A DNA stretch of 64,000 bases from Candidatus Shapirobacteria bacterium (GTDB lineage: Bacteria; Patescibacteriota; Microgenomatia; UBA12405), in the NCBI GenBank assembly GCA_041659325.1, contig JBAZYN010000002.1, positions 513 to 64,512 of the forward strand. Reading direction: 5' to 3'. The notes beneath the pieces are model-generated. The model saw nothing but the letters and a program-made list of their open reading frames with translations, ran no database searches and had not been told where the DNA came from. Position numbers and translations under genes: made by a program. Positions 35,730 through 62,870 of this stretch are shown in pieces (the first letter of the stretch is position 1; each line of letters begins with the position of its first letter).

Positions 35730-36341
35730 ATGAGGAAAATAATCGTAGTATCGGGTTTGGGAGACAGCAAACGCGAGCTTGGCCTTGGGTCGGCCTGGTG
35801 GAAAAATGAGGGATTAAGGCCGTTTATATTTCTACCAAATTGGGGAAACGGTAAAGGAGTAAAGCCAAAGCTCGTCAGATTATTAAAAATGATTGATAAA
35901 GAAAGTGGAAAAGAGACAATTTTTTTGATGGGAATCAGCGCCGGAGCTAGCTTGGCGATGAATGCTTTTTTACAAAGGCTTGATCGGGTAGAAAAAATGG
36001 TGAGTCTGTGCGGCAGATTAAGGTTTGGGTATTCCCCGGATAAAATCAGGAGAAAAATGCAAAAAGAGACATTGGCCTATCGGGCGTTTAGGGAATCGGT
36101 AAAATTGCTGGAATCCAATGTCAAAAACCTGGAAAAAAAAGATAGAAAAAGAGTCCTGACGGTTAGCGCCAAATTCGGCGATGAGCTAATTCCGATCGAA
36201 ACGTCACGGTTGGAGGGGGCAAAAAACATTTTGATACCGACGGCGGAGCATATTTTGTCAATTTTTGGCGGAATGACGGTCCATTTTAAACCGATAAGAG
36301 AGTTTTTGCTGGGAAAACAGGGTGGGAGTAAAATATACTAG
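35730..36341 (+). CDS. small alpha/beta-hydrolase (paralog A; RBBP9/YdeN-like serine hydrolase fold)
   Basis: Nucleophile elbow GISAGAS and later D (GDELIP) and H (TAEHIL). Clear paralog of 42674..43351 and 62304..62870. The track starts at TTG 35673. Confidence 0.6.
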   Translation: MRKIIVVSGLGDSKRELGLGSAWWKNEGLRPFIFLPNWGNGKGVKPKLVRLLKMIDKESGKETIFLMGISAGASLAMNAFLQRLDRVEKMVSLCGRLRFGYSPDKIRRKMQKETLAYRAFRESVKLLESNVKNLEKKDRKRVLTVSAKFGDELIPIETSRLEGAKNILIPTAEHILSIFGGMTVHFKPIREFLLGKQGGSKIY

Positions 36342-36343
36342 TG

Positions 36344-37087
36344 ATGACAAACGTGGTAATGAGTGATGAGGCAGAAGGGGCGCTTCAAAATATCTTTGAA
36401 ATTACAAAACCGATTTCTATTTTTGTTTATGGCTCTCGAGCCAGAACAGATTTTAAACCAACCAGTGATTATGAGGTCGGGGCAATTTATTTAAAAGAAA
36501 ATAAACCAAGAAGGGCTGAAATTGCGGCGTTACATAATGTCGAGGGGTTGAATGTTTATCCTTTTGCGGCTGAGGGGCTGAAACAATATAACCTGGATAC
36601 GCCATTTCCCAGGGCAATATATCTTAGGGAACTTATTGGCAGTAGCAGGACAGTATTTGGGCAGGAGATTTTGGAGAAAATGGAGCTGCCGGTGATTAGA
36701 TTAACAGATTTATTGGAGAGTGCGGCTTTTGAAGTGGCTACAGCGTTTGCGGCAGTTAGGTCGTTTAGAACAAATGATTTAATAACTACTTCGATAAACT
36801 TTAAATCAGCGCTCTTTGGGGCCAGGATTTTGGAAATTTTAGAACTAAAGAAATTTCCTTTAACTTATGATGGAATCTTTGAAACGACAAAACAGTTAGA
36901 CCTAAGTCCTGAATATTTGCCCTTACTTGATCATGCCATGAGAGTAAGGCGGGGAGAAAAAATTCAGGAACAATTTTTATTTACGAACATTACTTTTTTA
37001 AACCAAGAAGTTCTTAAAAAGGTAAAACATGAATTATCGGCAAGTGGCGATAGAACGGTTTTACCGGGGAAGAAAATTGAGTGGTAG
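36344..37087 (+). CDS. Pol-beta superfamily nucleotidyltransferase with helical C-terminal domain (KNTase/ANT-like architecture)
   Basis: IFVYGSRARTDFKPTSDYEVGAIY (hG[GS]...DxE), followed by ~150 aa of helical domain. Confidence 0.55.
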   Translation: MTNVVMSDEAEGALQNIFEITKPISIFVYGSRARTDFKPTSDYEVGAIYLKENKPRRAEIAALHNVEGLNVYPFAAEGLKQYNLDTPFPRAIYLRELIGSSRTVFGQEILEKMELPVIRLTDLLESAAFEVATAFAAVRSFRTNDLITTSINFKSALFGARILEILELKKFPLTYDGIFETTKQLDLSPEYLPLLDHAMRVRRGEKIQEQFLFTNITFLNQEVLKKVKHELSASGDRTVLPGKKIEW

Positions 37088-37177
37088 GAGCTTGGGGCTT
37101 TTTCCCAAACAGAATTGGCTGATGAAACCCCGAAATAAAAAAAGTTATAATGAGGGGTGGGAATAGAAGAGGGATAA

Positions 37178-38056
37178 ATGGTTGCAAGTCAAAGACCGAT
37201 AAAATGTGAGGAGAGACCTGAGTTGGTATCAGCAGTTTCCCAAAAATTAGGACATGCATATAAGTTGTTGGGGATTCCCGAGCCTAAGCTGCTGCCGGTA
37301 TCAATAGATTTTGAAGAAATTCCATATCTTGCAAAAGTAGATGTTACGAAAATCGGGGTAAGGGTAGCCTGTGACGAGAGATTTAGAACAAAAGAACAAG
37401 AGGATACTGCTTTGGTGGAATTTAGGTTAGAGGGAAACAACTTCCCCGGGACAGAGATAGTGTTGGCCCATGAGCTAGCGCACATCGGTCTTTGGGCTCT
37501 GACCGGGCAAGAAAGGCAACCGCCAACGAGGTTATTTGATGAAGGATTTGCGAATATTATCGAGAATGCGGCTGAGGCTGAAGATATTGAAGACTTAGAG
37601 CTAAGGGCAAGAGAGGAAACACGGGAAATGATGGCTTCTCACCCGGATGCATATGCAAGATGCCTGGAAATAGACCGGCCGGTTACCCAGACAGAGGCAC
37701 CACAGTTAAACGGGGTGGATGCAGTAGTGGGGAGGGCATTTTTGTTGTGGGCACGGCAAAAGGGCGGAAACCAGGCAATGATTGACTTGCTATCTCATTC
37801 ACCATCGGCAACTAAAAGAAATGACGAGGAGTTTGAGCCGGTGGCCTTGAAAGATGAGTGGGCAAATAATGAGGAGTACAATGAGTTGGTTGAAAAGATG
37901 ATATCAGGGGAAATACAACCTGAAGATTTTCCCCAAGAGGCCTATGAGTGGGAAAGAAAACAGCTAAAATGGGCGATATTAAAAATAACCGGAGCGGGAA
38001 ATATGGATGAAGTTAAACGAAAATTTTCCGAATGGGTTGAAGAAGGAAGAAAATAG
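37178..38056 (+). CDS. hypothetical HExxH protein (putative zinc-dependent hydrolase/peptidase)
   Basis: EIVLAHELAHIGLW motif. GC-rich, acidic C-terminus. Confidence 0.4.
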   Translation: MVASQRPIKCEERPELVSAVSQKLGHAYKLLGIPEPKLLPVSIDFEEIPYLAKVDVTKIGVRVACDERFRTKEQEDTALVEFRLEGNNFPGTEIVLAHELAHIGLWALTGQERQPPTRLFDEGFANIIENAAEAEDIEDLELRAREETREMMASHPDAYARCLEIDRPVTQTEAPQLNGVDAVVGRAFLLWARQKGGNQAMIDLLSHSPSATKRNDEEFEPVALKDEWANNEEYNELVEKMISGEIQPEDFPQEAYEWERKQLKWAILKITGAGNMDEVKRKFSEWVEEGRK

Positions 38057-38137
38057 GTAGCAAGATGGATATGTTTGTGGGAAGCAAAGAAGTAGTCTAA
38101 TGATGATTTATTTGAGGTTGATAAGAAGTAAAGAGGA

Positions 38138-38971
38138 TTGCGGTATAATAGCCTGATGGATATTTTGTGCTGGAACATAATGAGCGGAGGGTTTAATGGC
38201 TACGACAGTATGGCCAGTAAACCCGAAAGGTTAGATTTGTTGGTAGAAGCAATAAAGGGAGTTAACGCCGATTTTGTCAGTTTGGTTGACACACACAGAT
38301 GGACTGAGGTGTTTACGCCTGATGATTTGAGAGGATTATTTGGATATGAAAATGTCTATTTTGTGGGGCTTAATGACCAGAGGCTTAAGGTAAAAGGGCA
38401 TGATAATGGTATTGCTGTTTTAACACGATTGCCGATTACAAGATTTGAGACGGTGAGATTGGCAACGAGAAATGCAATTAGATCTGTGATTATGAATGGA
38501 GGAAAAGAATTGGAGATATTTTCAGTATATTTGGATGACTTAAGTGAGGATACGAGACTAAGGCAGGTAATGGCACTTTTGGGGCTAATTGATTTTGCTA
38601 AACCGACGGTATTTGCCGGAGACTTAAATACCATAAGTGCAAGTGAGGTACCGGAAGCGAGGGAAAATATAGAGAAGTTATTTTCTAGATACCCGCAAGC
38701 CCGGGTGATGGAGCCGTCTTTGAGGGAAATGATGCGGGGAGAGGTGATCAAAAAAATCGAAGAAAGGGGTTTTGTTGATATGGGAAAAGGGGCGGGAAAT
38801 ACAATACCGAGTAAACTGTCGCCTATTCCAATAGATAGACCTTTATTAAGGTTAGATTACGGCTTTTGCACCAAAGGGGTGGTAGTGGAAGGTTTTGAGG
38901 TATTAAGGGAAGAGATATTTGACAAGGTGTCGGATCATTATCCTATTAGGATGAAGGTTTCCTTGGGATGA
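38138..38971 (+). CDS. endonuclease/exonuclease/phosphatase (EEP) family protein
   Basis: ILCWNIMSGG, FAGDLNTI, SDHYPIRMKV are the EEP catalytic motifs. Confidence 0.75.
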   Translation: MRYNSLMDILCWNIMSGGFNGYDSMASKPERLDLLVEAIKGVNADFVSLVDTHRWTEVFTPDDLRGLFGYENVYFVGLNDQRLKVKGHDNGIAVLTRLPITRFETVRLATRNAIRSVIMNGGKELEIFSVYLDDLSEDTRLRQVMALLGLIDFAKPTVFAGDLNTISASEVPEARENIEKLFSRYPQARVMEPSLREMMRGEVIKKIEERGFVDMGKGAGNTIPSKLSPIPIDRPLLRLDYGFCTKGVVVEGFEVLREEIFDKVSDHYPIRMKVSLG

Positions 38972-39076
38972 ACGTCGGGTAAAATGATTGGGGAGTAATA
39001 AAAGAAAAACGCAACCTAACGTTTGCCTGTTTTGTATTGAATAAGAAGATAAATAGGATTGGGGTAAAATGTAATA

Positions 39077-39598
39077 ATGAAGTTAAATATTAACCCACCA
39101 GACTTTATTTATTGTCCATTTTGCGGTAATAAATTAGAAATAAAGTTTGACGGTGAAAAAGAAAGAAAATATTGTCTCACCGACAATTGGACTTATTATC
39201 CGTTTGTGGCCAACGCAGTCGGTGCCGTGATTCGGAACGGCGATAAAGTACTACTGGTTAAACGGAACAAAGAACCGTATAAAAATACATGGATGTTCCC
39301 TGCTGGGTTTGTAGATTATGGGGAGCACCCGGAAGATTCATTGGCCAGAGAGGTAAAAGAAGAGACGGGATTGGATGTAATAAGTTCTAGTTTAATGGGA
39401 ATATTTCAGGTTGACGATGATCCCCGGAGTCCAGGCCATTTTGATTTTTTTTACGAGGTAAAAGTTGGGTTGAAGAATGAGATTAAAACCGATAAAGACG
39501 AGAATAACGATATTAATTGGTTTGACTTAATAAATTTACCGGAAATAGGATGGCATACTCATCAGAAGGTTGTAGATATTGTTAGAAAAGAAGTCTAA
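39077..39598 (+). CDS. NUDIX hydrolase with N-terminal zinc ribbon (NudC-like)
   Basis: CPFCGNKL...KYC ribbon plus Nudix box GFVDYGEHPEDSLAREVKEETGL. Confidence 0.8.
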   Translation: MKLNINPPDFIYCPFCGNKLEIKFDGEKERKYCLTDNWTYYPFVANAVGAVIRNGDKVLLVKRNKEPYKNTWMFPAGFVDYGEHPEDSLAREVKEETGLDVISSSLMGIFQVDDDPRSPGHFDFFYEVKVGLKNEIKTDKDENNDINWFDLINLPEIGWHTHQKVVDIVRKEV

Positions 39599-39705
39599 AG
39601 TGAGCGTCAGACAAAATGATGTGGAGTAATAAAAGAAAAATATAACTTAACCATTGCCTGGTTTGAGATTGGCAAGAAAAAGCGGAATTGGAGTAAAATC
39701 AGATC

Positions 39706-40383
39706 ATGAAAAGTGACCACTTAATAAGTTCTTCTGAGGCAGGATTTGGAAAAAGGCTTAGAGATATTGAGCTGTGGGGGGATAAAGAAGGACAAATCGT
39801 GACGAACTATCAGGAAATATCCGAATATATCGCAAGAAGGATTTTTTCTAAAACCGGGGATAAAAGTATATTGGAAATTTGTTGCGGGATAGGATCTCTT
39901 ACTGTGTTTTTGGCTAAAGTTTTTAGCCGGGTAATTGCGGTTGATATTAATCCAATTCGAATTGTAGCGGCAAATAAAAATCTACAATTAAACAATTTAA
40001 TAAACAGAGTCGATTTAATAACCGGAGATATTGAAAACGAAAAGGTTATTAACAAAATTTGTAATAAATACAAGATTGGGGCTGTTTGTACGGATGTCAC
40101 ATGGTCTGAAACCGGTATCTACGGACAAGATCATACGGATGACTTGGATAAAACTACACCAGCTACGGATAAATTATTTAAGTTATTGACTGATAGAGAT
40201 TGGAAAAATATCTGTATGAGACTACCAAAAACGATTGACTATAAACAATTAATGGGTTTGGGGTCGGTAGAAATTGAAGAAATTTCCATAAATGGAGAAT
40301 TAAAGTTTATTTACGCTTATTTTGGCATGCTAGTTAAGGATATCGGAATAACAAAGAAGAACTTTCGGATAGACAGAAAATAA
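39706..40383 (+). CDS. class I SAM-dependent methyltransferase resembling RNA cap guanine-N2 methyltransferase (Tgs1/Methyltransf_15-like)
   Basis: ILEICCGIGSLTVFLA...VIAVDINPIRIVAANKN...VDLITGDI parallels the Tgs1 pattern DAFCGVGGN...VIAIDIDP...FICGD. Confidence 0.55.
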   Translation: MKSDHLISSSEAGFGKRLRDIELWGDKEGQIVTNYQEISEYIARRIFSKTGDKSILEICCGIGSLTVFLAKVFSRVIAVDINPIRIVAANKNLQLNNLINRVDLITGDIENEKVINKICNKYKIGAVCTDVTWSETGIYGQDHTDDLDKTTPATDKLFKLLTDRDWKNICMRLPKTIDYKQLMGLGSVEIEEISINGELKFIYAYFGMLVKDIGITKKNFRIDRK

Positions 40384-40461: not shown

Positions 40462-41208
40462 GTGAAAGACAATTTATTAGTCAAATGCAAAGAACTAATT
40501 CGGGCATATAAAAACGGTTTGTTAGGTATCTGCACTATGCCGGAAGACAGCAACCCTGGGTTTGACGAAGATGATGGAGAACTAAGACTTGCCTATTTTA
40601 CTTTGCCAATGAGTCTTAACTACCAGCGAGACAGTTACAAATTATGGGAAGCCGCACTTAAGGCGTACAAGGATAAGGCAGTTCAAAACATATTTGATGT
40701 AAAATCGGTATCGGAGATGTCCTCGGAAGAATTAAGAAGTAAGTTACTGAAATATAAAGTTGCTCTTCAACCAAATAAACACATCAATACTTGGAAAACC
40801 ATTTCGGAGACAATTTTGAATAACTGGGGTAGTTTCAAAAACTTGTTTGAATCAACGAATTTTGATTTGGAGATTATCAAGGAATTGATTCAAAAAAAAT
40901 ATAAAAGAGGCTTTCCTTATTTATCCGGACCTAAGATATTTAATTACTGGAGTTTTATTATAGGCACTTACGGAAGGATACCCCTTAAGAATAGACAATT
41001 AATTGAGATTGCCCCAGATACTCATGTGATTAAATGTTCAGTGGCTTTGGGATTAATTAGCATCGCGGAAGCAGAAAGACTAAGTAGGGACGAAATATCA
41101 AAACGATGGAGAGATGCTTTGGAGGGCTCAGGAATTAGTCCAATTGAGATGCATCCCCCTTTGTGGTTTTGGAGCCGGAATGGGTTTGTTTATAAACTTC
41201 GAAACTGA
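40462..41208 (+). CDS. HhH-GPD superfamily glycosylase-like protein
   Basis: FPYLSGPKIFNYWSFIIGTYGRIPL...IAPDTHVIK fits the helix-hairpin-helix Gly/Pro loop plus catalytic Asp pattern. Confidence 0.5.
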   Translation: MKDNLLVKCKELIRAYKNGLLGICTMPEDSNPGFDEDDGELRLAYFTLPMSLNYQRDSYKLWEAALKAYKDKAVQNIFDVKSVSEMSSEELRSKLLKYKVALQPNKHINTWKTISETILNNWGSFKNLFESTNFDLEIIKELIQKKYKRGFPYLSGPKIFNYWSFIIGTYGRIPLKNRQLIEIAPDTHVIKCSVALGLISIAEAERLSRDEISKRWRDALEGSGISPIEMHPPLWFWSRNGFVYKLRN

Positions 41209-41283: not shown

Positions 41284-41760
41284 ATGGGTGGAGATTTTAA
41301 GTGGGTGTCTACAACAAATATGTTTGTAATGGATGGGAGTAAAGTGCTAGTGATTAAAAGAGGAGAGGAAGAGAAAGATTTTCCCGGTTGGTATATGCTG
41401 CCCGGAGGGAAGCAAGAAGCGAATGAAACACCGATACAGACTGCAATTAGAGAAACTTTTGAAGAGACGGGAATAAAGGTAACAAATCCAAAATTAAGAG
41501 TTTTGGCGACACACAATCACGAATACCGGGAAAGAATGTATCTGGTATACATATTCTCATCTACCGAATTCTTGGGACAAATTGTCCAGTCAGATGAAGG
41601 AACCGCGATGTGGATGCCGATTGATGAACTTATAAATAACCCAAAGTTATACCCGGACTTAAAGAGACATATTAGAATGATTATAGGGGACGAAGAGCAT
41701 GAAGTATTGTTTACGTATCATAAGTTTGACGATAACTTGAATATCATCGAGGAAGCCTGA
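41284..41760 (+). CDS. NUDIX hydrolase
   Basis: Nudix box GGKQEANETPIQTAIRETFEETGI. Confidence 0.8.
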   Translation: MGGDFKWVSTTNMFVMDGSKVLVIKRGEEEKDFPGWYMLPGGKQEANETPIQTAIRETFEETGIKVTNPKLRVLATHNHEYRERMYLVYIFSSTEFLGQIVQSDEGTAMWMPIDELINNPKLYPDLKRHIRMIIGDEEHEVLFTYHKFDDNLNIIEEA

Positions 41761-41763
41761 GCT

Positions 41764-42555
41764 ATGGATCGGGAGAGTATAGGAGAAGAAATTGAGAAGG
41801 AAAGAAGAGGCCCTAAAATCATTGGAGTAATCGGGCCTCACAGAATAGGAAAGGATACTGTAATTGATGGACTGGTTTCAAGCTTATCGGGCAAAGATGT
41901 GAGAAAGTTTTCAATCGGTGAATATATCAGGGATAGGCTTTATGAAACGGATGATCCTGCCGGAGCAGAGGTACTTTTTGCCAGAGAATTGGAAGAAGCG
42001 AAGGTTGAGAGCGAAGATACTCGTTTGAATAAACTGTCGGGGAGACAACTGGTGGGGGAAATTAAACATAATTATGACAATAGATTACCCATTCCGGAGG
42101 AAGTGGCCGACTGGATATTTAAAGGATTTCTCGAGAGTTGTTCTGAGGATACTATAGTGCTGATGTCTGGAGGGCCTTATTCTGTAATTGATCTGAAGTT
42201 CATGGAGAAACATTCTCCTCCAATGGGGTTGATTTTGCTAGCCCCGACCTCTAGGGATTGGATGGAAGAAATTCCCAGAAGGGCGGCGTTTGGGGAGAGG
42301 GAGAGTATGCGTGACCCAGAAGAAGAGTGGAACAAATGGAGAGGAAGGGTGGCGGAAGTGATGCGACACGCTTATTCGATGGGATACCCGGTACTACATG
42401 TGAATATGAGAAACCCCGGGTTGTCTATAGAAAATGTTAATAGTCAAATACAAGGTGCCCTTGGTGAGTTTGTGGAGGGGGTAGCAGAGGGGCGAACACT
42501 CTCGAAATTGAAAAAAATTGATATTGGTGGGGATGAGAGGTTAGGACGAAATTAA
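41764..42555 (+). CDS. P-loop NTPase, predicted nucleotide/nucleoside kinase-like
   Basis: Walker A-like IGVIGPHRIGKDTV near the N-terminus. 263 aa; no other clear family signature. Confidence 0.45.
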   Translation: MDRESIGEEIEKERRGPKIIGVIGPHRIGKDTVIDGLVSSLSGKDVRKFSIGEYIRDRLYETDDPAGAEVLFARELEEAKVESEDTRLNKLSGRQLVGEIKHNYDNRLPIPEEVADWIFKGFLESCSEDTIVLMSGGPYSVIDLKFMEKHSPPMGLILLAPTSRDWMEEIPRRAAFGERESMRDPEEEWNKWRGRVAEVMRHAYSMGYPVLHVNMRNPGLSIENVNSQIQGALGEFVEGVAEGRTLSKLKKIDIGGDERLGRN

Positions 42556-42673: not shown

Positions 42674-43351
42674 ATGAATTATGTGGTTGGTGGTGTGGCG
42701 GTGGCGATATTATTCTGTTTAGTGTTTACCCTTAGTATTGTGATAAATAATAACTCTTTGGGAAAAACTAATCATACGGCGATAATCGTATTGGGTTTGG
42801 GAGAAAACCGGGAATCTAAAACCGTGGAATATCTATGGAAAAGGCAAGGAGTAAAAGTGATATTTTTTCAACCTAACTGGAAAAGTGAAGAAAAACTACA
42901 GGATAAACTAAAAAGATTGTCAGATTTAATTGATAAAGAAGCAATGGGGAATAAGGTTTCTCTAGTAGGTGTGAGTGCCGGAGGAAGTCTGGTAATCAAT
43001 GCTTTCGTCGAAAATAAAAATAAAGTTGATAAAGTAATCACTTTATGTGCCCGCTTAAGAAAGGGTGAAATGACAGGCTTCCGAGGTTTTGAAGAAAGAA
43101 CAAAAGGTTATCCGGCTTTTCGGGATTCAGTTATCTTGGCAGAAAAAGTAGAAAAGTTATTTGATGAAAATGATAGAAAAAAAATTATGACCGTTCATGC
43201 ATTGTTAGGTGACGAATTGGTACCTCAAAATACGACAACGATTGAAGGAGCAAAGAATATAACCGTGCCGACGGGAGAACATGTAATTAGTAGTGCGGCC
43301 AGTTTGACGATATTTTCTAAACCTTTAGTTAAATTTATTTTAGAAAAATAG
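42674..43351 (+). CDS. small alpha/beta-hydrolase (paralog B, N-terminal TM anchor)
   Basis: GVSAGGS elbow; LCARLRKGE; GDELVP; TGEHVI. Collinear with paralog A throughout. Confidence 0.6.
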   Translation: MNYVVGGVAVAILFCLVFTLSIVINNNSLGKTNHTAIIVLGLGENRESKTVEYLWKRQGVKVIFFQPNWKSEEKLQDKLKRLSDLIDKEAMGNKVSLVGVSAGGSLVINAFVENKNKVDKVITLCARLRKGEMTGFRGFEERTKGYPAFRDSVILAEKVEKLFDENDRKKIMTVHALLGDELVPQNTTTIEGAKNITVPTGEHVISSAASLTIFSKPLVKFILEK

Positions 43352-43477: not shown

Positions 43478-44368
43478 ATGGGTATAGAACGGGGAGTACA
43501 AACAAAAGAATTTCCCACTGCCACAAGGTATCAATTTTCCGAATGGGATGAAAAAAAACAGGAATATGTCTGGACTGACGGAAAAGAAACTTTGGCTGGC
43601 GAAAAAGGACAACTTTCAGTGGGACACTACGAAGGGGAAGGGTTAAGAGAAGCGTTAAGGGTAAATACCGGCATGGCCAGATTTGTTTTGGTTGATAACG
43701 GAACAGCATCTCTGGAAGGCCAGATTGTTGATTCAAAAAGTTTGGTTTACATCCCTGCCGGAGCATCTGTGAATCTTGGGGAAGTCCAGGGCGGGGCTTG
43801 GATTGTGGAAGTAACGGCAACTCTTTCTGAAGAAAATACTAAGGCAACTATTCTTCCGGTTTCGGTTAATCCAACTAGTCATGCTGCCTGGTTTGGTTCT
43901 TGGACTTCGGTTGGTGGCCAAAACCTTGGTATCCCTCCTTCGATTCATTTCGGAATTGAAGAGGGATCGGTTACGGAAATTATCACCGCCGGATTGGGCA
44001 CAGAATATACTCCATGGAGCCTTCGGAATTTATCAGAAGAAAAACAAACAAAAGCTAGAGCAGCAGTGGCCGATAATAAAAATGCAGAACTTCTCCATGG
44101 ACATAATGATACGACTGAAATTTACGTTTGTGTTGAAAATCGAACAGTAGTTGATATTCAACCTAACAACGCTCCTCCTACAAATGAAATAGATCACCAA
44201 CAATCGGTACCTTTAGGGCCAGGAATGATGGTAGTCGTTGGACCCAGTACAGGATACTCTCACCGCGAACCTTCTCCAATAATCAGTGGCAAAATGTTTG
44301 TTATTAAATGGAATGGAGGGGAAATCGTCGATAGGAACGATAAACACCCCCATCCTTTGGCGGGATAG
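43478..44368 (+). CDS. hypothetical protein (possibly cupin-like beta-rich)
   Basis: 296-aa ORF with no recognisable catalytic motifs. Lies between the cassette and tRNA-Cys. Confidence 0.35.
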   Translation: MGIERGVQTKEFPTATRYQFSEWDEKKQEYVWTDGKETLAGEKGQLSVGHYEGEGLREALRVNTGMARFVLVDNGTASLEGQIVDSKSLVYIPAGASVNLGEVQGGAWIVEVTATLSEENTKATILPVSVNPTSHAAWFGSWTSVGGQNLGIPPSIHFGIEEGSVTEIITAGLGTEYTPWSLRNLSEEKQTKARAAVADNKNAELLHGHNDTTEIYVCVENRTVVDIQPNNAPPTNEIDHQQSVPLGPGMMVVVGPSTGYSHREPSPIISGKMFVIKWNGGEIVDRNDKHPHPLAG

Positions 44369-44377
44369 CACGACTTG

Positions 44378-44448
44378 AGACCCGGGTGGGAGTTGAACCC
44401 ACCTAAACGGTTTTGCAGACCGCTGTATAACCGCTTTACTACCGGGTC
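44378..44448 (-). tRNA. tRNA-Cys(GCA)
   Basis: Manual fold: acceptor GACCCGG/CCGGGTC, anticodon stem GCGGT/ACCGT, loop CTGCAAA, T-arm GTGGG-TTCAACT-CCCAC, discriminator U73 (the CysRS identity element). Confidence 0.7.
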
Positions 44449-45498: not shown

Positions 45499-46299
45499 TT
45501 ATTTAGTCGTGATTAAAGTAGATTTACTGCAATCGTCTGAGACGATGGCGGAGAATAAATTATCAGGGTGAGTGCCGTTGATGATAAAAACATCGGTGCC
45601 GGTTTTGGCCATATTTAAACTCTCCTCGATCTTGTGTAGCATACCGCCGGTAACATCAGCGACGGTTGAGCTTTTAAGGGCAGATCTTAGAGAAGGAAAA
45701 TTTTGGGGGGTGATTATTGGAATTGTGGTTCCGTTTTCGTCGTAGACACCATCGGTGGTACCGGCCTGGATGACTTTGGAAATTGAAAAACCATTTGATT
45801 GAAGCGGCGGGATAAGATTATCAAGGTTGGCCTCCCCGGAATAAATACAACTGCCGATTTTTTTGTCCAAAATTATATCGCCAAAAACAAGGGGAATTAT
45901 CCCAAGTTTCAGAGCGATTACAATCGGATCGATGTAGAGGGAATTTAAGTCTTTGTTATCCGAAGTAGTAAAGGATGAAGGGACAAAAGACAAAACATTT
46001 AGCCCCTCGTCTAAAAAAATACGATTAACGATACGATTGATTTCGATGGCCACTTGTTGGACCTGACATAGGCCCTTGATCTGGTCTTCTGTTTTTGCAC
46101 CGTCGGCAGTGCCATATTGACTAGCCAGAGTGTGGGCGAAAGAACCCGATCCGTGAGAAATGAGGAGTTGATATTTTGAAGATTTGGATTTTTTTATTTC
46201 TATGGCTAAACGGCGAATCACATCGTCGCGGGCAGTATAGGGCTTTGACTTGTCTGTAATTAAGCTGCCACCTAATTTTAAAAGAATTAGATTTTTCAT
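45499..46299 (-). CDS. isopentenyl phosphate kinase (amino-acid-kinase fold)
   Basis: ILLKLGGSLITDK N-terminal motif and AAK-fold length. Adjacent to the MVD gene. Confidence 0.75.
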   Translation of the reverse strand: MKNLILLKLGGSLITDKSKPYTARDDVIRRLAIEIKKSKSSKYQLLISHGSGSFAHTLASQYGTADGAKTEDQIKGLCQVQQVAIEINRIVNRIFLDEGLNVLSFVPSSFTTSDNKDLNSLYIDPIVIALKLGIIPLVFGDIILDKKIGSCIYSGEANLDNLIPPLQSNGFSISKVIQAGTTDGVYDENGTTIPIITPQNFPSLRSALKSSTVADVTGGMLHKIEESLNMAKTGTDVFIINGTHPDNLFSAIVSDDCSKSTLITTK

Positions 46300-46940
46300 T
46301 TGGAAAATAAAACTGCTTTTAACTGTTTTTGGAGCCGGCCGTGATGACGAATCAAGACAAGGATGGTACCGACTAGAACCGGTAAAAACATAGTCGGGTT
46401 TATTAAAAATATTGGGACGAGGGCAAATATTTCCCCTATCAGGCGACCCAAAATTTGGTCAGAGATGATGTGTGAAAAAGAAGGGAAACGACCTTTGAAT
46501 TTCTTTTTGATAAAGAAAACGAACTCAGTTAAATACATAAAAATAACAAGGGTGAGAAGCCAGACAATAAGCATTATCGGCTGATAGTAGAAAATTATCC
46601 CCATAAGAGTGGCGGCTCCCCGGCCACCATAAAATTTCAGAAAAACCGGATAATTGTGACCAAGGATGACAAAAAAGGTGGCTAAAACGGGACTATCGGG
46701 GAAAAGGTTTAGGACCAAAATTCCTTTAAAAATATCCGTCAGAGCGACAATCAAAAAAGCGACGGCAGCAAGAAGGATACTTCTTTTTTCTTTCTTGACG
46801 GTTCTTAGGGTATTTAGGGCGCCCATGTTGCCCGAGCCCCCGGAGCGGACATCTTGGCCGGTAAAAAGATAGACAATAATCAGGGCAGTGGGGAAACAAC
46901 CGATGAGATAAGAAATAACAATGGGGTTAATTATCGACAT
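46296..46940 (-). CDS. PlsY-family glycerol-3-phosphate acyltransferase paralog
   Basis: GSGNMGALNTLRT and GHNYPVFLKFYGGRGAAT motifs. Confidence 0.7.
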   Translation of the reverse strand: MSIINPIVISYLIGCFPTALIIVYLFTGQDVRSGGSGNMGALNTLRTVKKEKRSILLAAVAFLIVALTDIFKGILVLNLFPDSPVLATFFVILGHNYPVFLKFYGGRGAATLMGIIFYYQPIMLIVWLLTLVIFMYLTEFVFFIKKKFKGRFPSFSHIISDQILGRLIGEIFALVPIFLINPTMFLPVLVGTILVLIRHHGRLQKQLKAVLFSK

Positions 46941-48615
46941 ATGAACAAACTATTGAACCGGGGCCTAAGTGGACACTTAAAACAGGAGAAGTGACAGTGG
47001 AAAAAATTACTTTTATCCCATAATTCTCGAGTAATTGTTGTAGGTTTTTTACGAGCTTTTGGTTTGCGGTATGGGTGATAATTATTTGGAGGCGATAGTT
47101 TGGTTTATCATATTTTTTTAGACGGTCAAACATAACCCGGGCGAGATCCCCGCCCCCAAAACCCAGACCGGCATTTTTCATAACACCGTCTTTTATCTGA
47201 AGAAAAGGGTTGAGCTTTAATTTTTTTAAAACCCGAACTATATTGGCTTTGGTATGACTTAGGCGGCCACCCATTTCGGCCCACTTTGGATCATCAATCA
47301 GGGCGATGGTGTGTATTTTTGGAATCTGGCTTTTGATTTTTTTGACAATTATTTTGGCTTTTTGTTTTTTAGCAATCAGCTCTAAAATTTGGAGAGCCAA
47401 AATGGCCTCTCCCCCGCTGACGCAAAAAGAGTCGATGATGTGAACTCTTCTTTGGTCGTATAGGCTAAGTAAACTTCTGGCTTGAAGGGCGCTGTTGTAT
47501 GATCCGGATAAAAGAGAGGAAATAGTAAGACAAATGATTTTTTGGTATTTTTTTAAATGCGACTGAAAAAGCTGATGGTAAATTTTTGGTGACGGCTGGG
47601 AAGTGGTTGATACTTTGCCTGATTTAATAATCCTGAAGGGCGCAACGGGGATATCGTATTGGAAAAGTAAGTTCTTTGGCAAATCAGCGGCACCATCTAC
47701 AATCAGGCCAATACCACCCAGACGGGCGGAGACGGAGATTTGTTCTAAAAGATCCTGTTTTTCTATTTTTAGGACTTTGCCTAGGGATTTGATCTTTTTG
47801 ATAACAGGATCAGGATGGTTGGTATGAATATGAATTTTAGTTTTTTGATTGACAGTAATAATATCCAGAGAATCGCCCAAATTTTTCAGACAATCAAAAT
47901 TGTTTACAGAGGGCTTGAGGAGACAAATAATTTCAAAACGTCCGGAGTCGGAGATGGCGACAACCGGAGAGTCGGCGAATTTTTGCTTTTGAACGACATG
48001 GACATCTTGGTGATTTAGGGCTTCCAAAAAACCTTCCAGAGCAATTAAAAAACCTAAACCGCCGGCATCAACGGAAGAGGTTTTACCGGAAATCCCGACA
48101 TGTGACCTGGTGGCATCGACCGCTTTGGAGGCAGATTTGATTGAGTTTTGAAAAGCGAGAATTATGTTTTTGTTTTTCCTGCTCTCTACGGCAAAAGAGA
48201 GAGAGACGGCTTTTATAACATCGAGAACAGTGCCGGTTTTGGGATTTTGAATAGAAGTATGGGCTTTCTTGAAACCGTTTTGAAAAGCGGTGGCTAAATT
48301 GCTAATTTCGATGGGAATTTGCTGAAATGTTTGTAAAAATCCTACCAAAAATCCGGTATAAATTATACCGATGTTGCCGGAGGCAGAGTCGAGCGCCCCT
48401 TCCAGAGCAAGAGATCGAAAATCATTAATGTCGGTAAAATTTTTTGAAATTAGAGCCCTTTTGATGCCATTTAGGGTTTGGCTTAAATTGTTGCCGGTGT
48501 CTTTGTCGGGGACGGGGAAAAAATTGGTAAGGTTAATCTGGTGTTTATTTTCATCGACTTTTTCGGCGGCACGGAAAAACATTTGGGATAAATTTTCAAG
48601 GTTGAGAGAATTCAT
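46927..48615 (-). CDS. fakA: fatty acid kinase FakA-like (DAK2 + DegV-like domains)
   Basis: N-terminal Dak2-like DKDTGNNLSQTLNGI; C-terminal DegV-like ICLTISSLLSGSYNSA. 562 aa. Confidence 0.65.
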   Translation of the reverse strand: MNSLNLENLSQMFFRAAEKVDENKHQINLTNFFPVPDKDTGNNLSQTLNGIKRALISKNFTDINDFRSLALEGALDSASGNIGIIYTGFLVGFLQTFQQIPIEISNLATAFQNGFKKAHTSIQNPKTGTVLDVIKAVSLSFAVESRKNKNIILAFQNSIKSASKAVDATRSHVGISGKTSSVDAGGLGFLIALEGFLEALNHQDVHVVQKQKFADSPVVAISDSGRFEIICLLKPSVNNFDCLKNLGDSLDIITVNQKTKIHIHTNHPDPVIKKIKSLGKVLKIEKQDLLEQISVSARLGGIGLIVDGAADLPKNLLFQYDIPVAPFRIIKSGKVSTTSQPSPKIYHQLFQSHLKKYQKIICLTISSLLSGSYNSALQARSLLSLYDQRRVHIIDSFCVSGGEAILALQILELIAKKQKAKIIVKKIKSQIPKIHTIALIDDPKWAEMGGRLSHTKANIVRVLKKLKLNPFLQIKDGVMKNAGLGFGGGDLARVMFDRLKKYDKPNYRLQIIITHTANQKLVKNLQQLLENYGIKVIFSTVTSPVLSVHLGPGSIVCSYVDN

Positions 48616-60643: not shown

Positions 60644-60709
60644 AATTGGGTGAATTTTAACCTTTTTGAATCGAATTTACCAGAAATAATATGTATAATC
60701 TGAACTACT

Positions 60710-60985
60710 ATGAAATATCGCCCGTCTTATTTTAAATATTCGCCCATTCCCTACACCGGTTGTAAATATTGCCTTCCATGCCCTTTTGGGGTAAATATCC
60801 CCCGTAATTTTGAAATCTATAATGAGATGAAAATGTTTGATTGTCACGAAACCAGTGCCAAAGAGTATGGCAGTCTTGACGATTTGCAGAAAGCTTCTAA
60901 CTGCAGACAATGTGGTAAGTGTGAACCTCTCTGTCCACAAAAAATTGCTATACGTGACTGGTTGGTAAAAGTGGCAGGAATATAA
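60710..60985 (+). CDS. Cys-rich 4Fe-4S ferredoxin-like fragment (possible remnant of an AKR-FeS oxidoreductase C-terminus)
   Basis: CKYCLPCPFGVNIPRNFEIYN and CRQCGKCEPLCP (CxxCxxCxxxCP). Only 91 aa with no upstream catalytic domain. Confidence 0.35.
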   Translation: MKYRPSYFKYSPIPYTGCKYCLPCPFGVNIPRNFEIYNEMKMFDCHETSAKEYGSLDDLQKASNCRQCGKCEPLCPQKIAIRDWLVKVAGI

Positions 60986-61446
60986 TGGTGCATATGGAAA
61001 ATCATAAAATAAATGTTCGATTGAGAATCGTTGTTATCAAAGACGGCAAGCTTTTGGTTCAGTACCGACAAAAACATGATTATTATCATTATATTGGTGG
61101 GCATTTAGAATACGGAGAAACGGTGCTGGAGGGCTGTATTAGAGAAGTGGCCGAAGAGTGCGACGGGGCCACATTTGCGTTTAATAAAATTCTTTATATC
61201 CGTGACTTTATTCTCCCCGAAGAAAACGAGCATAGTGTGGAATTGTTTATATTAGGAAATATTGATAAGTCAGAAAAATTGGAACATCTTTTTGACCCTC
61301 AACATACCGATAATTCTGTTTGGTGTACGTGGTTGGATATGGATAAGCTTCCGAATAATTTAAAGCCAAAGGATTTAACTAAAAAATTAGTGACTGATTA
61401 TAAAAATAATTTTCTAAATACCGGCGAGTACGTGGGGAGGATGTAA
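60985..61446 (+). CDS. NUDIX hydrolase
   Basis: Nudix box GGHLEYGETVLEGCIREVAEECD. Confidence 0.8.
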   Translation: MVHMENHKINVRLRIVVIKDGKLLVQYRQKHDYYHYIGGHLEYGETVLEGCIREVAEECDGATFAFNKILYIRDFILPEENEHSVELFILGNIDKSEKLEHLFDPQHTDNSVWCTWLDMDKLPNNLKPKDLTKKLVTDYKNNFLNTGEYVGRM

Positions 61447-61449
61447 AAA

Positions 61450-61944
61450 ATGAAAATTTCATCAGTCGTTGAATGGAGTAGCCAGAAGGTAACTTATACT
61501 TGGATTCCGGCGGATGATTTGAAAAAATTTCAACCAATAAAACAAGCTTATGGCGTTTGTGTAAATGACGACAAAGAAACCCTGATATACCGTGCACCAG
61601 GGAAAACAAACTGGAATTTACCCGGGGGTACACCGGAAGGAAACGAGTCCCCGATTGAAACATTAAAACGGGAGTTAATAGAAGAAGTCGATATTGAAGT
61701 TGAGCGAATTAAACCCCTGGGGGTTCAAAAAGTAGTTTTTTCCGACGGTGTTATTTTTTACCAGGCCCGATTTTATTGCAAAATAAAAAAAATATTATCT
61801 CAAACGGTTGACCCGGCAACAGGGCTTTTGAACGAACGTAAATTTGTGAAAATTGCAGAGCTTAATAAGTATTTAAAATGGGGTGAAATCGGTGAAGCGA
61901 TTGCTAAACGGGTGGTAAATATGGAAACAATCCTTAATTATTAA
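61450..61944 (+). CDS. NUDIX hydrolase
   Basis: Nudix box LPGGTPEGNESPIETLKRELIEEVDI. Confidence 0.8.
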   Translation: MKISSVVEWSSQKVTYTWIPADDLKKFQPIKQAYGVCVNDDKETLIYRAPGKTNWNLPGGTPEGNESPIETLKRELIEEVDIEVERIKPLGVQKVVFSDGVIFYQARFYCKIKKILSQTVDPATGLLNERKFVKIAELNKYLKWGEIGEAIAKRVVNMETILNY

Positions 61945-62303
61945 TGGCTACAAAACAAAATTAGAACATTCCGGTCCCAAAAATCACACAGGGTGCCAAT
62001 CCATCAACTCTAACTCCAACATAATTCCAGTGTACCTAAACTTACCAGACAAAGATTTTTGTAAAAATCCGATGAGTAGAAGAAGAATCGTTAGATTAAA
62101 GTTTGGATTTTGTAGTTTATTGTGGACTAAGAGTGGTTTCAAAATATATTATGGATTGAGTTATAATTGACCTATAAAAAACTCACGATCTTACGATCGG
62201 GGTTTTGTGTTCCGCTTTTGTCGAGCAATGCTTAGTTATTAATAGCTTCATCTCCGACCTCACGGTCGGAGATTTCGCTGTCTTGGAATAAATATGACTG
62301 AAA

Positions 62304-62870
62304 TTGAAATTCGAGGGAAATTATCAGAAAGTGAATTCTAATATGCAAATAATTTACCTGGCCGGGAATAGCCTTAATAATAAAACTTGGATTGAAAAGG
62401 TAAAATTCAACTTTGATTCGTTTTCCGAGGGTGATATTTTGTATTACGATCATTGGGAATCCGGAAAAGAATGGATAAACCTAAATAAAGAATCAGAAAA
62501 ATTAGCCAAACTCGCAAAAGATATAAAAGATTGTTTTGTTTTTGCCAAATCAATCGGATCGGTATTGGCTTTAAAAAATATTATGGAGGGAACCCTACAC
62601 ACAAAGAAAATGGTGATTTGCGGATTTCCCTATCGGGCTGGTAAAAGAGAGCTTGAAGAAATAAATGAGTGCTTAAGGACGCTTGCTGTCCCGACAATGT
62701 TTATTCAAAATGAATTCGACCCGGTTTATAGTTTTGATGAATTGACAAAAACACTGGAAGAAAATAGTCCACTTGATTGCCACCTAGTGAAAATTCCACG
62801 CAATAATACACATGACTATGAGGACTTTGAGAATTTAACAAAAACCACCAGAGAGTTTTTTGAAAAATAA
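62304..62870 (+). CDS. small alpha/beta-hydrolase (paralog C)
   Basis: IIYLAGNS..., FAKSIGS, VICGFPYRAG, DPVYS, NNTHDY are collinear with paralogs A and B. The start is probably the ATG at 62343 (MQIIYLAG). Confidence 0.5.
   Translation: MKFEGNYQKVNSNMQIIYLAGNSLNNKTWIEKVKFNFDSFSEGDILYYDHWESGKEWINLNKESEKLAKLAKDIKDCFVFAKSIGSVLALKNIMEGTLHTKKMVICGFPYRAGKRELEEINECLRTLAVPTMFIQNEFDPVYSFDELTKTLEENSPLDCHLVKIPRNNTHDYEDFENLTKTTREFFEK

What the first reader, a model, noticed from the sequence alone, without database searches (positions are those of the whole stretch)
35730..62870. Three paralogous small alpha/beta-hydrolases, each adjacent to NUDIX hydrolase genes
Paralogs A (35730-36341), B (42674-43351) and C (62304-62870) share collinear blocks. 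The blocks are an N-terminal II(V/Y)xxGLG, a G-x-S-x-G-type elbow, an LCGRLR-like turn, D-E-L-(I/V)-P and a terminal H. A and B flank two NUDIX genes. C sits amid three more (60985, 61450, and the 63106-63519 pseudogene). Recurrent linkage of this hydrolase family with NUDIX enzymes in one 64 kb window suggests a functional module. One possibility is esterase plus pyrophosphatase acting on the same nucleotide-derived substrate (ADP-ribose/O-acetyl-ADP-ribose, nucleotide-sugar or capped RNA).
Basis: partly seen in the sequence, partly recalled or inferred. Interest (0 to 1): 0.55.

Follow-up and report, generated by a model that had tools for sequence, protein, structure and literature searches.

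The report
Two esterase families beside Nudix genes
The window, from a tiny-genome Shapirobacteria bacterium, holds small serine esterases of two unrelated families lying in two changeable clusters of nucleotide-cleaning genes; only one family (C) is convincingly tied to a Nudix enzyme, so the result is a modest refinement and not a new system.

Summary
Observation partly confirmed. A (35730-36341) and B (42674-43351) are true paralogs: 42% identity, E 1e-50. C (real start 62343, end 62870) is not their paralog. Pairwise E-values are 0.011 and 0.52, and profile-profile probability is 5%. All three are small alpha/beta serine hydrolases with an invariant Ser-Asp-His triad.

A/B belong to a large uncharacterised family (856 or more 50%-identity clusters). 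Its nearest solved relative is Bacillus LipA. B carries an N-terminal membrane helix. C is Abhydrolase_11-like.

Four Nudix genes and one frameshifted Nudix pseudogene are real. However, A lies 4 genes and B 2 genes from the nearest Nudix. Only C is adjacent to one.

Across homologs, A/B has a neighbouring Nudix in 6 of 63 dereplicated loci, mostly among Shapirobacteria orthologs of A. C has one in 9 of 22 loci (9 of 25 with three extra contexts). In C, the stop codon overlaps a NudE-like Nudix by 11 nt in three genomes. A genuine C-Nudix fusion protein occurs on 7 contigs. Fusions of C to a TM1012-like nucleotidyltransferase domain make up 31 of 120 homologs.

Both loci are variable arrays that end at tRNA genes. 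They hold Nudix, HD, CYTH, Ham1, UDG and EEP genes. The C array in this window is decayed.

Verdict: ordinary families with a partly real linkage. Interest is low to moderate.

The parts
35730..36341 (+). Hydrolase A: 203-aa cytoplasmic LipA-like small alpha/beta serine hydrolase (triad S70/D151/H174)
   Evidence: invariant S, D, H in 40 homologs. PDB profile hit to B. subtilis LipA, E 2e-7, with Ser, Asp and His aligned. AF2 pLDDT 93.9, alpha/beta-hydrolase fold.
42674..43351 (+). Hydrolase B: 225-aa paralog of A with an N-terminal hydrophobic (transmembrane) helix
   Evidence: 42% identity to A; 69% identity to the ortholog in L001. Kyte-Doolittle 19-residue hydropathy 2.69 at residues 6-24. 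Similar N-terminal hydrophobic helices occur in 7 of the other aligned extended homologs.
62343..62870 (+). Hydrolase C: 175-aa Abhydrolase_11-like small alpha/beta serine hydrolase (triad S70/D126/H157). It belongs to a different family from A/B.
   Evidence: PF20408 at 24.7 bits against a cutoff of 27. PF20408 is precomputed for the identical protein P0054; invariant residues; not related to A/B. AF2 pLDDT 94.7, alpha/beta-hydrolase fold.
39077..39598 (+). Nudix hydrolase with an N-terminal Zn ribbon, NudC/NAD-diphosphatase-like
   Evidence: NUDIX 78.5 bits plus Zn_ribbon_Nudix. NF001299 at 57 bits, below threshold.
41284..41760 (+). Nudix hydrolase, MutT-like
60985..61446 (+). Nudix hydrolase (cluster 17 of the C-array survey)
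61450..61944 (+). Nudix hydrolase (cluster 3). The same family lies directly downstream of C in L014 and L021 (same strand), in L016 (opposite strand), and downstream of the C-Nudix fusion gene in L011.
63106..63519 (-). Nudix pseudogene with a canonical Nudix box and one frameshift near 63420
62875..63105 (+). Truncated HD_4 (RelA/SpoT-hydrolase-like) gene. Only residues 1-67 of the 169-aa family remain.
62294..62341 (+). 15-codon remnant (MTEIEIRGKLSESEF*) of the 192-aa gene that precedes C in relatives. That gene looks CYTH-like by eye only.
   Evidence: No Pfam hit was found.
36341..37087 (+). Pol-beta/MntA-like nucleotidyltransferase-fold protein (weak match). Its start overlaps the stop codon of A.
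   Evidence: The same family lies two genes after an A ortholog in L039.
38138..38971 (+). Endonuclease/exonuclease/phosphatase (EEP) family protein
   Evidence: An EEP homolog lies next to the A ortholog in L008.
39706..40383 (+). Methyltransf_15 (cap guanine-N2 methyltransferase-like) SAM methyltransferase
   Evidence: 58.7 bits.
40462..41208 (+). AGOG/HhH-glycosylase-like protein (weak match). A homolog lies next to the A ortholog in L032.
34194..35031 (+). ECF sigma factor plus a small membrane protein. Together they form the conserved left landmark of array 1 in Shapirobacteria.
44377..44448 (-). tRNA-Cys, the conserved landmark at the right end of array 1
63660..63743 (-). tRNA-Ser(gct), the conserved landmark (together with the DUF5673 gene starting near 63778) at the right end of array 2

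Best explanation
The window comes from a Candidatus Shapirobacteria (CPR/Patescibacteria) genome. It holds two separate variable gene arrays, each ending at a tRNA gene.
- Array 1 runs from about 35.0 to 44.4 kb, between the ECF sigma gene and tRNA-Cys.
- Array 2 runs from about 60.7 to 63.7 kb and ends at tRNA-Ser.

Both arrays are filled with small enzymes that act on nucleotides or nucleic acids: Nudix, HD, NTase-fold, EEP and HhH-glycosylase-like genes, and in relatives also Ham1, UDG, CYTH-like and His-phosphatase genes. Gene content and order are reshuffled between related genomes.

Each array also holds a small catalytically intact serine alpha/beta-hydrolase, but of two different families.
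- A and B are members of a widespread, unnamed, LipA-like carboxylesterase family. A is soluble and B is membrane-anchored. They most likely act as stand-alone esterases or lipases, and their closeness to Nudix genes reflects where they sit rather than a shared substrate (inferred).
- C is an Abhydrolase_11-like esterase. In part of the Shapirobacteria it is translationally coupled or fused to a NudE/ADP-ribose-pyrophosphatase-like Nudix, and it is often fused to a TM1012-like nucleotidyltransferase-fold domain. C therefore probably removes an ester-linked group from a nucleotide-linked compound that the partner then cleaves or makes. The coupling is shown; the substrate is inferred.

In this window, the C array is a decayed remnant that lacks those partners.
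For: Organism and synteny.

A/B:
- Paralogy and an invariant Ser/Asp/His triad.
- LipA is the best solved relative, with all three catalytic residues aligned.
- Confident alpha/beta-hydrolase model with esterase and lipase structural neighbours.
- 856 family representatives at E<=1e-10.
- No conserved neighbour: the commonest neighbour cluster occurs near only 5 of 63 members.
- Nudix adjacency is 6/63 and concentrated in A orthologs.
- B and its orthologs carry an N-terminal hydrophobic helix.

Array 1 fluidity:
- Relatives show A-UDG-HD-tRNA-B (L001), HD-A-Nudix-Ham1 (L005), A-EEP (L008) and HD-A (L009).
- The window's NTase, EEP, HhH-like and Nudix families each recur beside A orthologs elsewhere.
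- Genes of array 1 are spaced 75-125 nt apart. Most of them carry a -10-like box just before the start codon, which suggests separate transcription.

C:
- Distinct family, invariant triad, confident model.
- 9 of 22 loci have an adjacent Nudix against 11.5% of controls, p 8e-4.
- 11-nt stop/start overlap with a NudE-like Nudix in L010, L022 and L028.
- A 350-aa C-Nudix fusion on 7 contigs from 4 sources.
- 31 of 120 homologs carry a C-terminal TM1012-like NTase-fold domain.
- Other tightly spaced same-strand downstream partners are HD_4 and a CYTH-like gene.

Decay in the window: CYTH-like remnant, truncated HD_4 and frameshifted Nudix. The NudE-like Nudix and the TM1012 domain are absent.
Against: - No biochemical evidence exists for any substrate.
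- Fold searches return only generic esterases and lipases.
- A/B Nudix adjacency, though rare, still exceeds local controls: 9.5% against 2.0%, p 0.005. It reaches 3 of 11 in the A-ortholog clade, so weak functional linkage for A cannot be excluded.
- C's Nudix partners belong to at least three Nudix subfamilies, and two thirds of C loci have none. This fits a Nudix-rich neighbourhood (8% of genes are Nudix) as well as it fits a specific pathway.
- Loci are phylogenetically non-independent, so the Fisher p-values are optimistic.
- Gene calls and the Nudix detector were home-made.
- No integrase or att repeats support the tRNA-island idea.
- The membrane topology of B is ambiguous.
Confidence: 0.55

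Rival explanations
1. One reading: A, B and C are one esterase family. Each works with neighbouring Nudix pyrophosphatases on a common nucleotide-derived substrate such as O-acetyl-ADP-ribose, nucleotide sugars or capped RNA.
For: - In-window proximity has p = 0.011.
- Adjacency exceeds local controls in both families.
- C-Nudix coupling and fusion.
- A orthologs have a Nudix 9-27 nt downstream in L034, L039 and L005.
Against: - C is not homologous to A/B beyond the superfamily level.
- 57 of 63 A/B loci have no adjacent Nudix, and no partner gene is conserved.
- In this window A and B are not adjacent to a Nudix, and most genes of the array appear to carry their own promoter-like box.
- B is membrane-anchored.
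- The five Nudix genes are 23-36% identical to each other, so they are different subfamilies with presumably different substrates.
Confidence: 0.1
2. There is no functional coupling at all, even for C. Small accessory genes simply pile up in a few permissive, tRNA-flanked variable regions of a streamlined genome. Overlaps and fusions are by-products of extreme gene packing.
For: - Content and order are shuffled between close relatives.
- Pseudogenes and remnants occur in the window.
- Nudix density is 8% of genes around C.
- C's downstream partner varies: NudE-like Nudix, another Nudix, HD_4, a CYTH-like gene, GNAT, or convergent His-phosphatase.
- Rare A/B fusions to unrelated APH kinase and 5-FTHF cyclo-ligase domains show that chance fusions happen.
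Against: - The same C to NudE-like Nudix junction (ATGACAAATAA) is kept in C lineages only 55-73% identical to the window's C.
- The fusion recurs in independent assemblies.
- One quarter of C homologs are fused to an NTase-fold domain.
- Nearly all tight partners act on nucleotides. That is more coherent than random accessory genes would be.
Confidence: 0.25
3. The arrays are mobile or conflict-related islands, for defence or counter-defence, that degrade nucleotide immune signals.
For: - Both arrays abut the 3' ends of tRNA genes.
- Content is variable.
- The enzyme types present (Nudix, HD, NTase) also occur in defence and anti-defence systems.
Against: - PADLOC gives only generic domain-level hits and no system.
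- No integrase or recombinase was seen among the genes scanned against Pfam in or beside the arrays, and no att-like repeat of the tRNA end.
- The flanking landmarks and the hydrolases themselves are vertically conserved in Shapirobacteria.
Confidence: 0.07

Closest known systems
Bacillus subtilis lipase A / EstA (family I.4 'minimal' lipases; PDB 1i6w, 3qmm)
   Same: - About 180-200 aa alpha/beta hydrolase.
- A profile of the A/B family matches LipA chains at E 2e-7 to 2e-4.
- The nucleophile Ser, the acid Asp (GDELVP against SADMIV) and the His (EH against GH) all align.
   Different: - A/B have a canonical G-x-S-A-G elbow, whereas LipA has A-H-S-M-G.
- The model shows an extra roughly 40-residue two-helix insertion (residues 105-139) and a conserved C-G-R-L-R loop.
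- A has no signal peptide, and B has a membrane helix rather than a cleaved secretion signal.
- No Pfam family reaches threshold.
- Activity is untested.
Pfam Abhydrolase_11 (PF20408; KANSL3/TEX30-type alpha/beta-hydrolase domain and bacterial relatives), and YdeN-like or XCC1541-like small hydrolases (PDB 3bdv, 2qjw, 5f2h)
   Same: - C scores 24.7 bits on PF20408, and the identical database protein carries a precomputed PF20408 hit.
- C is a compact alpha/beta fold of about 175 aa.
- Foldseek TM-scores to 5f2h, 3bdv and 2qjw are 0.65-0.78.
   Different: - The score is just under Pfam's gathering cutoff in my scan.
- The elbow is A-K-S-I-G.
- No characterised member offers a substrate.
- The fusions to Nudix and to a TM1012-like domain were not found in the literature searched here.
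ADP-ribose/ADP-compound Nudix pyrophosphatases (NudE/NudF family), and macrodomain O-acetyl-ADP-ribose deacetylases as the known esterase partner in that chemistry
   Same: The Nudix coupled or fused to C is most similar to NudE (45.7 bits) and to the YffH/AdpP subfamily. JGI names close homologs ADP-ribose pyrophosphatase. An esterase followed by an ADP-ribose pyrophosphatase would mirror OAADPr deacetylation followed by ADPR cleavage (established knowledge).
   Different: - The NudE match is far below the equivalog cutoff of 169 bits.
- The esterase here is an alpha/beta hydrolase, not a macrodomain.
- No sirtuin or macrodomain was seen in the arrays.
- This Nudix is absent from the window.
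TM1012 putative nucleotidyltransferase (PDB 2ewr/4hx0), the closest template for the fukutin/FKRP NTase domains
   Same: The C-terminal domain of the 313-aa C homologs matches TM1012 at E 2.4e-5, including the G-[AS]-x...D-x-D active-site region. TM1012's status as a putative NTase and as a template for fukutin is stated in PMC2794190.
   Different: The function of TM1012 itself is unknown. The domain is absent from the window's C and unrelated to the window's NTase-like gene 36341-37087.

Membership tests
alpha/beta-hydrolase fold serine hydrolases (A, B, C) | Strand, nucleophile elbow (small-x-Ser-x-small), then helix | tested here: met
   The elbows are GISAG (A), GVSAG (B) and AKSIG (C). 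In both AF2 models, Ser70 sits between strand 64-69 and helix 71-82.
alpha/beta-hydrolase fold serine hydrolases (A, B, C) | Ser-Asp-His catalytic triad conserved across homologs | tested here: met
   S70, D151 and H174 are invariant in 40 A/B sequences. S70, D126 and H157 are invariant in 33 C sequences.
alpha/beta-hydrolase fold serine hydrolases (A, B, C) | Overall fold | tested here: met
   AF2 pLDDT is 93.9 and 94.7. Foldseek probability is 1.00 to many esterases and lipases, with TMq 0.6-0.78.
One paralogous family comprising A, B and C | Significant sequence or profile similarity among all three | tested here: not met
   A-B E 1e-50. A-C E 0.011 and B-C E 0.52. hhalign probability 5%.
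Bacillus LipA-type minimal lipases (Pfam Lipase_2) | Sequence-profile match covering the catalytic Ser, Asp and His | tested here: met
   The A/B profile against PDB gives LipA/EstA chains at E 2e-7 to 2e-4, with two aligned stretches containing Ser, Asp and His.
Bacillus LipA-type minimal lipases (Pfam Lipase_2) | Reaches a curated family threshold | tested here: not met
   The Pfam scan of A and B at E<=1 lists only sub-threshold generic Abhydrolase/Hydrolase_4 hits and no Lipase_2. NCBIfam gives nothing meaningful.
Bacillus LipA-type minimal lipases (Pfam Lipase_2) | Secreted, lid-less enzyme with lipase or esterase activity | not testable with these tools
   A lacks any N-terminal extension. 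B has a hydrophobic helix of ambiguous topology. The model has a two-helix insertion at 105-139. Activity is unknown.
   No PF06821 hit at E<=1 for A, B or C. The YdeN-like structure 3bdv appears only at E 0.48 for the A/B profile and as a fold neighbour of C with TM 0.67.
Abhydrolase_11 (PF20408), for C | Pfam gathering score | tested here: inconclusive
   24.7 bits against a cutoff of 27 for the 188-aa ORF. PF20408 is precomputed for the identical 175-aa P0054 and for many homologs.
NUDIX hydrolases | Pfam PF00293 above threshold, and a Nudix box | tested here: met
   Four genes score 38-78 bits against a cutoff of 21.1. A strict Nudix-box pattern matched 39077, 41284 and the minus-strand pseudogene.
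Conserved esterase-Nudix gene module | Adjacency conserved across homologs of the esterase | tested here: inconclusive
   A/B: 6 of 63 against 2.0% of controls. C: 9 of 22 against 11.5% of controls, and 0 of 3 additional distant contexts. The result is enriched but in the minority, and it is not corrected for phylogeny.
Conserved esterase-Nudix gene module | Gene fusion or translational coupling between the two | tested here: met
   Met for C only: an 11-nt overlap in L010, L022 and L028, and the fused 350-aa P0322 on 7 contigs. None was found for A/B, whose rare fusions are to APH and 5-FTHF cyclo-ligase.
tRNA-integrated genomic island | tRNA at the boundary plus an integrase and a direct repeat of the tRNA 3' end | tested here: not met
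   tRNA-Cys and tRNA-Ser are at the boundaries. No integrase domain turned up among the genes scanned against Pfam in or beside the arrays and no att-like repeat was found.
Known anti-phage defence systems (PADLOC) | Match to system-specific protein models | tested here: not met
   Only generic Nudix, MTase and NTase domain-level hits were found.

The most novel reading that the evidence does not exclude
In Shapirobacteria, the Abhydrolase_11-like esterase C, a TM1012-like nucleotidyltransferase-fold domain and a NudE-like Nudix form a previously undescribed three-activity pathway. The pathway would make, de-esterify and cleave an ADP-ribose-like or other nucleotide-linked ester. This would be an alpha/beta-hydrolase counterpart of macrodomain OAADPr deacetylases, used for nucleotide scavenging or signal turnover in an organism that cannot make nucleotides de novo.
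Probability: 0.2. Interest if true: 0.5.

Novelty: new member of a known kind. Interest (0 to 1): 0.3.

Why it matters
CPR bacteria have tiny genomes full of unannotated genes and depend on scavenged lipids and nucleotides. That CPR bacteria are thought unable to make membrane lipids is stated in the abstract of bioRxiv 10.1101/465690.

Three results are useful here.
1. A/B is a large, unnamed LipA-like esterase family with no curated model: 856 representatives at E<=1e-10. This is a useful annotation result and a candidate for lipid scavenging.
2. The fusion of C with an ADP-ribose-pyrophosphatase-like Nudix is a concrete 'Rosetta stone' that gives a testable substrate hypothesis for an otherwise uncharacterised esterase.
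3. Some A/B and C homologs carry automated (JGI) names such as 'pimeloyl-ACP methyl ester carboxylesterase' and 'dienelactone hydrolase'. No support for those specific names came up in this analysis.

None of this overturns current understanding.

Tried and rejected
- Three-way paralogy: rejected.
- Ser_hydrolase/YdeN membership: rejected.
- A conserved neighbour for A/B: none found.
- Domain fusions of A/B as functional hints: only single APH-kinase and 5-FTHF cyclo-ligase fusions, which are uninformative.
- Relationship between the TM1012-like domain fused to C homologs and the NTase-like gene next to A: none.
- Defence-system reading: PADLOC negative.
- tRNA-island reading: no att repeat or integrase.
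- A shared intergenic 'cassette' element in array 1: its conserved core (GGAGTAAAAT about 6 nt before the ATG) also occurs before unrelated genes across the window. It looks like this organism's general promoter for leaderless mRNAs, not an array-specific signal.
- Rfam: only three tRNAs in the window.
- Literature searches on Nudix in CPR, on Abhydrolase_11 and on TM1012 gave nothing on these proteins.

Full report
ORIGIN AND GENE MAP

The window matches a 335-kb contig of a Candidatus Shapirobacteria MAG (CPR/Patescibacteria). B is identical to WC841_03370, and C is identical to WC841_03470.

From 34 to 44.5 kb the plus strand carries, in order:
- an ECF sigma factor (34194-34694) and a small membrane protein (34675-35031)
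- an unknown gene (35074-35652)
- hydrolase A (35730-36341)
- a weak Pol-beta/MntA-like NTase-fold gene (36341-37087)
- an unknown gene with an HELAH motif (37178-38056)
- an EEP nuclease/phosphatase (38138-38971)
- a Zn-ribbon NudC-like Nudix (39077-39598)
- a Methyltransf_15 methyltransferase (39706-40383)
- a weak AGOG/HhH-like gene (40462-41208)
- a MutT-like Nudix (41284-41760)
- an unknown gene with a P-loop-like motif seen by eye; it has no Pfam or NCBIfam hit (41764-42555)
- hydrolase B (42674-43351)
- an unknown gene (43478-44368)
- tRNA-Cys (44377-44448, minus strand)

The second site, from 60.7 to 64 kb, carries:
- a 91-aa Fer4 fragment
- two Nudix genes (60985-61446 and 61450-61944)
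- a 398-nt spacer
- hydrolase C
- a truncated HD_4 gene
- an inverted, frameshifted Nudix
- tRNA-Ser(gct)
- the start of a DUF5673 membrane protein

CHECKING THE OBSERVATION

A and B are clear paralogs: 42% identity and E 1e-50. C is not part of that family.
- A vs C gives E 0.011, and B vs C gives E 0.52.
- A profile-profile comparison of a 40-sequence A/B alignment with a 33-sequence C alignment gives 5% probability. It covers only the N-terminal half.
- Pfam places C nearest Abhydrolase_11 (24.7 bits, cutoff 27). A and B get only sub-threshold generic hits.

All three proteins look catalytically competent.
- Ser70, Asp151 and His174 are invariant in the A/B family.
- Ser70, Asp126 and His157 are invariant in the C family.
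- In both high-confidence models (pLDDT 93.9 and 94.7), the serine sits at the strand-helix elbow.

The Nudix genes are real, and so is the pseudogene. It has an N-terminal 30 codons in one frame, then a canonical Nudix box and the rest of the gene in another frame. The five Nudix sequences are only 23-36% identical to one another, so they are different subfamilies.

'Adjacent' is an overstatement for A (nearest Nudix is the 4th gene away) and for B (the 2nd gene away). It is literally true only for C. A permutation of three genes among the window's 69 called genes gives p = 0.011 for the observed closeness. This test was chosen after seeing the data.

WHAT A AND B ARE

A full HMMER scan of 1.8 billion cluster representatives finds 856 with E<=1e-10. 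Almost all are single-domain proteins of about 195-200 aa. The few named ones come from Microgenomates-group CPR bacteria.

The best solved relative is the minimal lipase LipA/EstA of Bacillus subtilis (E 2e-7). Its nucleophile, acid and histidine segments all align. Structural neighbours are generic esterases and monoglyceride lipases.

B and a set of its orthologs have an N-terminal hydrophobic helix. A and its orthologs do not. Which side of the membrane B's catalytic domain faces is ambiguous.

DO A AND B TRAVEL WITH NUDIX GENES?

I collected 80 metagenomic loci plus 9 contexts of named homologs. I called ORFs, built a Nudix HMM from the window's four genes and iterated it. Targets were dereplicated at 90% identity.
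- A Nudix is the immediate neighbour in 6 of 63 loci, against 2.0% for control genes more than two positions away (Fisher p 0.005).
- The signal is concentrated in orthologs of A (3 of 11). It is weaker in the B clade (2 of 16) and in the remaining members (1 of 36).
- No neighbour family is conserved. The commonest neighbour cluster, an HD protein, occurs near 5 of 63 targets.

Within Shapirobacteria, A sits in a fixed slot after transketolase, the ECF sigma gene and a small membrane protein. What follows differs from genome to genome:
- L001: UDG, HD, tRNA-Cys, B
- L005: HD, A, Nudix, Ham1
- L008: A, EEP
- L009: HD, A
- L032: Nudix, HhH-like, A, Ham1, HD
- L039: A, Nudix, NTase

So the families found between A and B in the window recur next to A elsewhere, but in shuffled order. 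Array 1 is a fluid collection of nucleotide and DNA 'sanitation' genes anchored by A and tRNA-Cys.

The genes of array 1 are separated by 75-125 nt. Most of them carry a TAAAAT-type box ending 5-8 nt before the start codon (39077, 39706, 40462, 41284 and 42674, and A itself with a TATAAT). The same arrangement occurs before many unrelated genes in the window. I take this to mean individually transcribed, probably leaderless, genes rather than an operon. This is an inference.

WHAT C IS, AND ITS LINKAGE

The word-indexed homolog search found 148 C homologs. All those that carry a taxon name are Shapirobacteria, and many have a precomputed PF20408 hit.

Of the 120 listed, 31 are about 313 aa long because of a C-terminal domain. 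That domain matches the putative nucleotidyltransferase TM1012 at E 2.4e-5. TM1012 is described as a putative NTase, and as the closest template for the fukutin NTase domain, in PMC2794190.

In 22 GTDB species-representative loci:
- A Nudix is the immediate neighbour in 9, against 11.5% for controls (p 8e-4).
- Three further, more distant contexts have none.
- In L010, L022 and L028, the stop codon of C (or of C-NTase) overlaps by 11 nt the start of a 178-aa Nudix. That Nudix is most similar to NudE and the YffH/AdpP ADP-sugar pyrophosphatases, at sub-threshold scores.
- In L011 a small length difference at the junction (TTTTATG against TTTATATG in L010) fuses the two genes. The fused 350-aa protein is recorded on 7 contigs from four sources, so it is not a single assembly error.
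- Other tightly spaced same-strand downstream partners are a second Nudix family, the HD_4 (RelA/SpoT-hydrolase-like) gene and a 192-aa gene that looks CYTH-like only by eye.
- The surrounding 10 kb is unusually rich in Nudix genes (8% of called genes). It also holds HD, His-phosphatase, GNAT and glyoxalase-fold genes.

THE WINDOW'S C ARRAY IS A DECAYED VERSION
- The gene that normally precedes C is reduced to 15 codons (62294-62341).
- HD_4 keeps residues 1-67 of 169.
- The Nudix after it is inverted and frameshifted.
- The NudE-like Nudix and the TM1012-like domain are absent from the whole window.

The spacer before C carries a promoter-like match and terminator-like hairpins. C is therefore probably not co-transcribed with the two upstream Nudix genes. 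This rests on weak evidence from consensus scans only.

INTERPRETATION

The best-supported picture is of two different esterase families living in two variable, tRNA-bounded arrays of small nucleotide-directed hydrolases.

For A/B, family-wide context, the LipA relationship and B's membrane anchor point to stand-alone carboxylesterase or lipase roles. Lipid scavenging is plausible. CPR bacteria are thought unable to make membrane lipids (bioRxiv 10.1101/465690 abstract). The window also encodes a FakA-DegV fusion and two PlsY copies. This link is speculative.

For C, the overlap, the fusion and the NTase-domain fusions are classic indicators of functional association with nucleotide chemistry.

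Rivals that remain open:
- pure neighbourhood effects in Nudix-rich junk-tolerant regions
- a weak real linkage for A orthologs
- conflict-island readings, for which I found no support

CAVEATS
- Gene calls and Nudix detection in the surveys were my own simple procedures.
- Loci are phylogenetically related, so the p-values are optimistic.
- Only +/-10 kb around each homolog was visible.
- No substrate is established for any protein discussed.

Noticed in passing
window, many genes; e.g. upstream of 3563(-), 8464, 21413(-), 39077, 39706, 40462, 41284, 42674, 60643(-): A TAAAAT/TATAAT-like box ends 5-8 nt before the start codon of many genes, often as GGAGTAAAAT. This suggests widespread leaderless transcripts in this organism.
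   Followed up: partly
window 38972-39076 and 39599-39705: The two spacers flanking Nudix 39077-39598 are copies of one roughly 105-nt element. The core 38989-39034 vs 39620-39665 is 83% identical. Partial copies lie before 38138, 40462 and 42674.
   Followed up: partly
window 39077-40383: A NudC-like Zn-ribbon Nudix is followed by a Methyltransf_15 (RNA cap guanine-N2 methyltransferase-like, 58.7 bits) gene. This is an unusual pairing for a bacterium and hints at NAD-cap or cap-like RNA chemistry.
   Followed up: no
window 46296-49208 (minus strand): A FakA-like (Dak2) plus DegV fusion protein of 562 aa is flanked by two PlsY (G3P acyltransferase) paralogs. Next to them lie mevalonate-diphosphate decarboxylase-like and amino-acid-kinase-family genes. 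Together this is a kit for using exogenous fatty acids.
   Followed up: no
window 60710-60985: A 91-aa ORF holds only a 4Fe-4S dicluster domain and lies directly before the Nudix pair. It looks like a gene fragment.
   Followed up: no
window 62176-62290: Two short GC-rich hairpins (CGATCTTACGATCG and TCTCCGACCTCACGGTCGGAGA) and a 10/12 promoter-like match lie in the 398-nt spacer before C.
   Followed up: no
window 37178-38056: A 292-aa protein with an HELAH (HExxH-like) motif has no Pfam, NCBIfam or PADLOC match.
   Followed up: no
L005 8412-9311, L005 20142-20582 and neighbours: Relatives carry an HMUDK_hel (5-hmdU DNA kinase helical domain) protein and a metallo-beta-lactamase-fold protein with an Anti-Pycsar_Apyc1 hit near the A slot.
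   Followed up: no
P0179 and P0306 (A/B family representatives): Single A/B-family proteins are fused to an APH-type phosphotransferase domain (462 aa) and to 5-formyltetrahydrofolate cyclo-ligase (386 aa).
   Followed up: partly
whole window: GC skew is positive in every 4-kb bin (0.05-0.32) and most genes lie on the plus strand. This is consistent with a single replichore arm.
   Followed up: no
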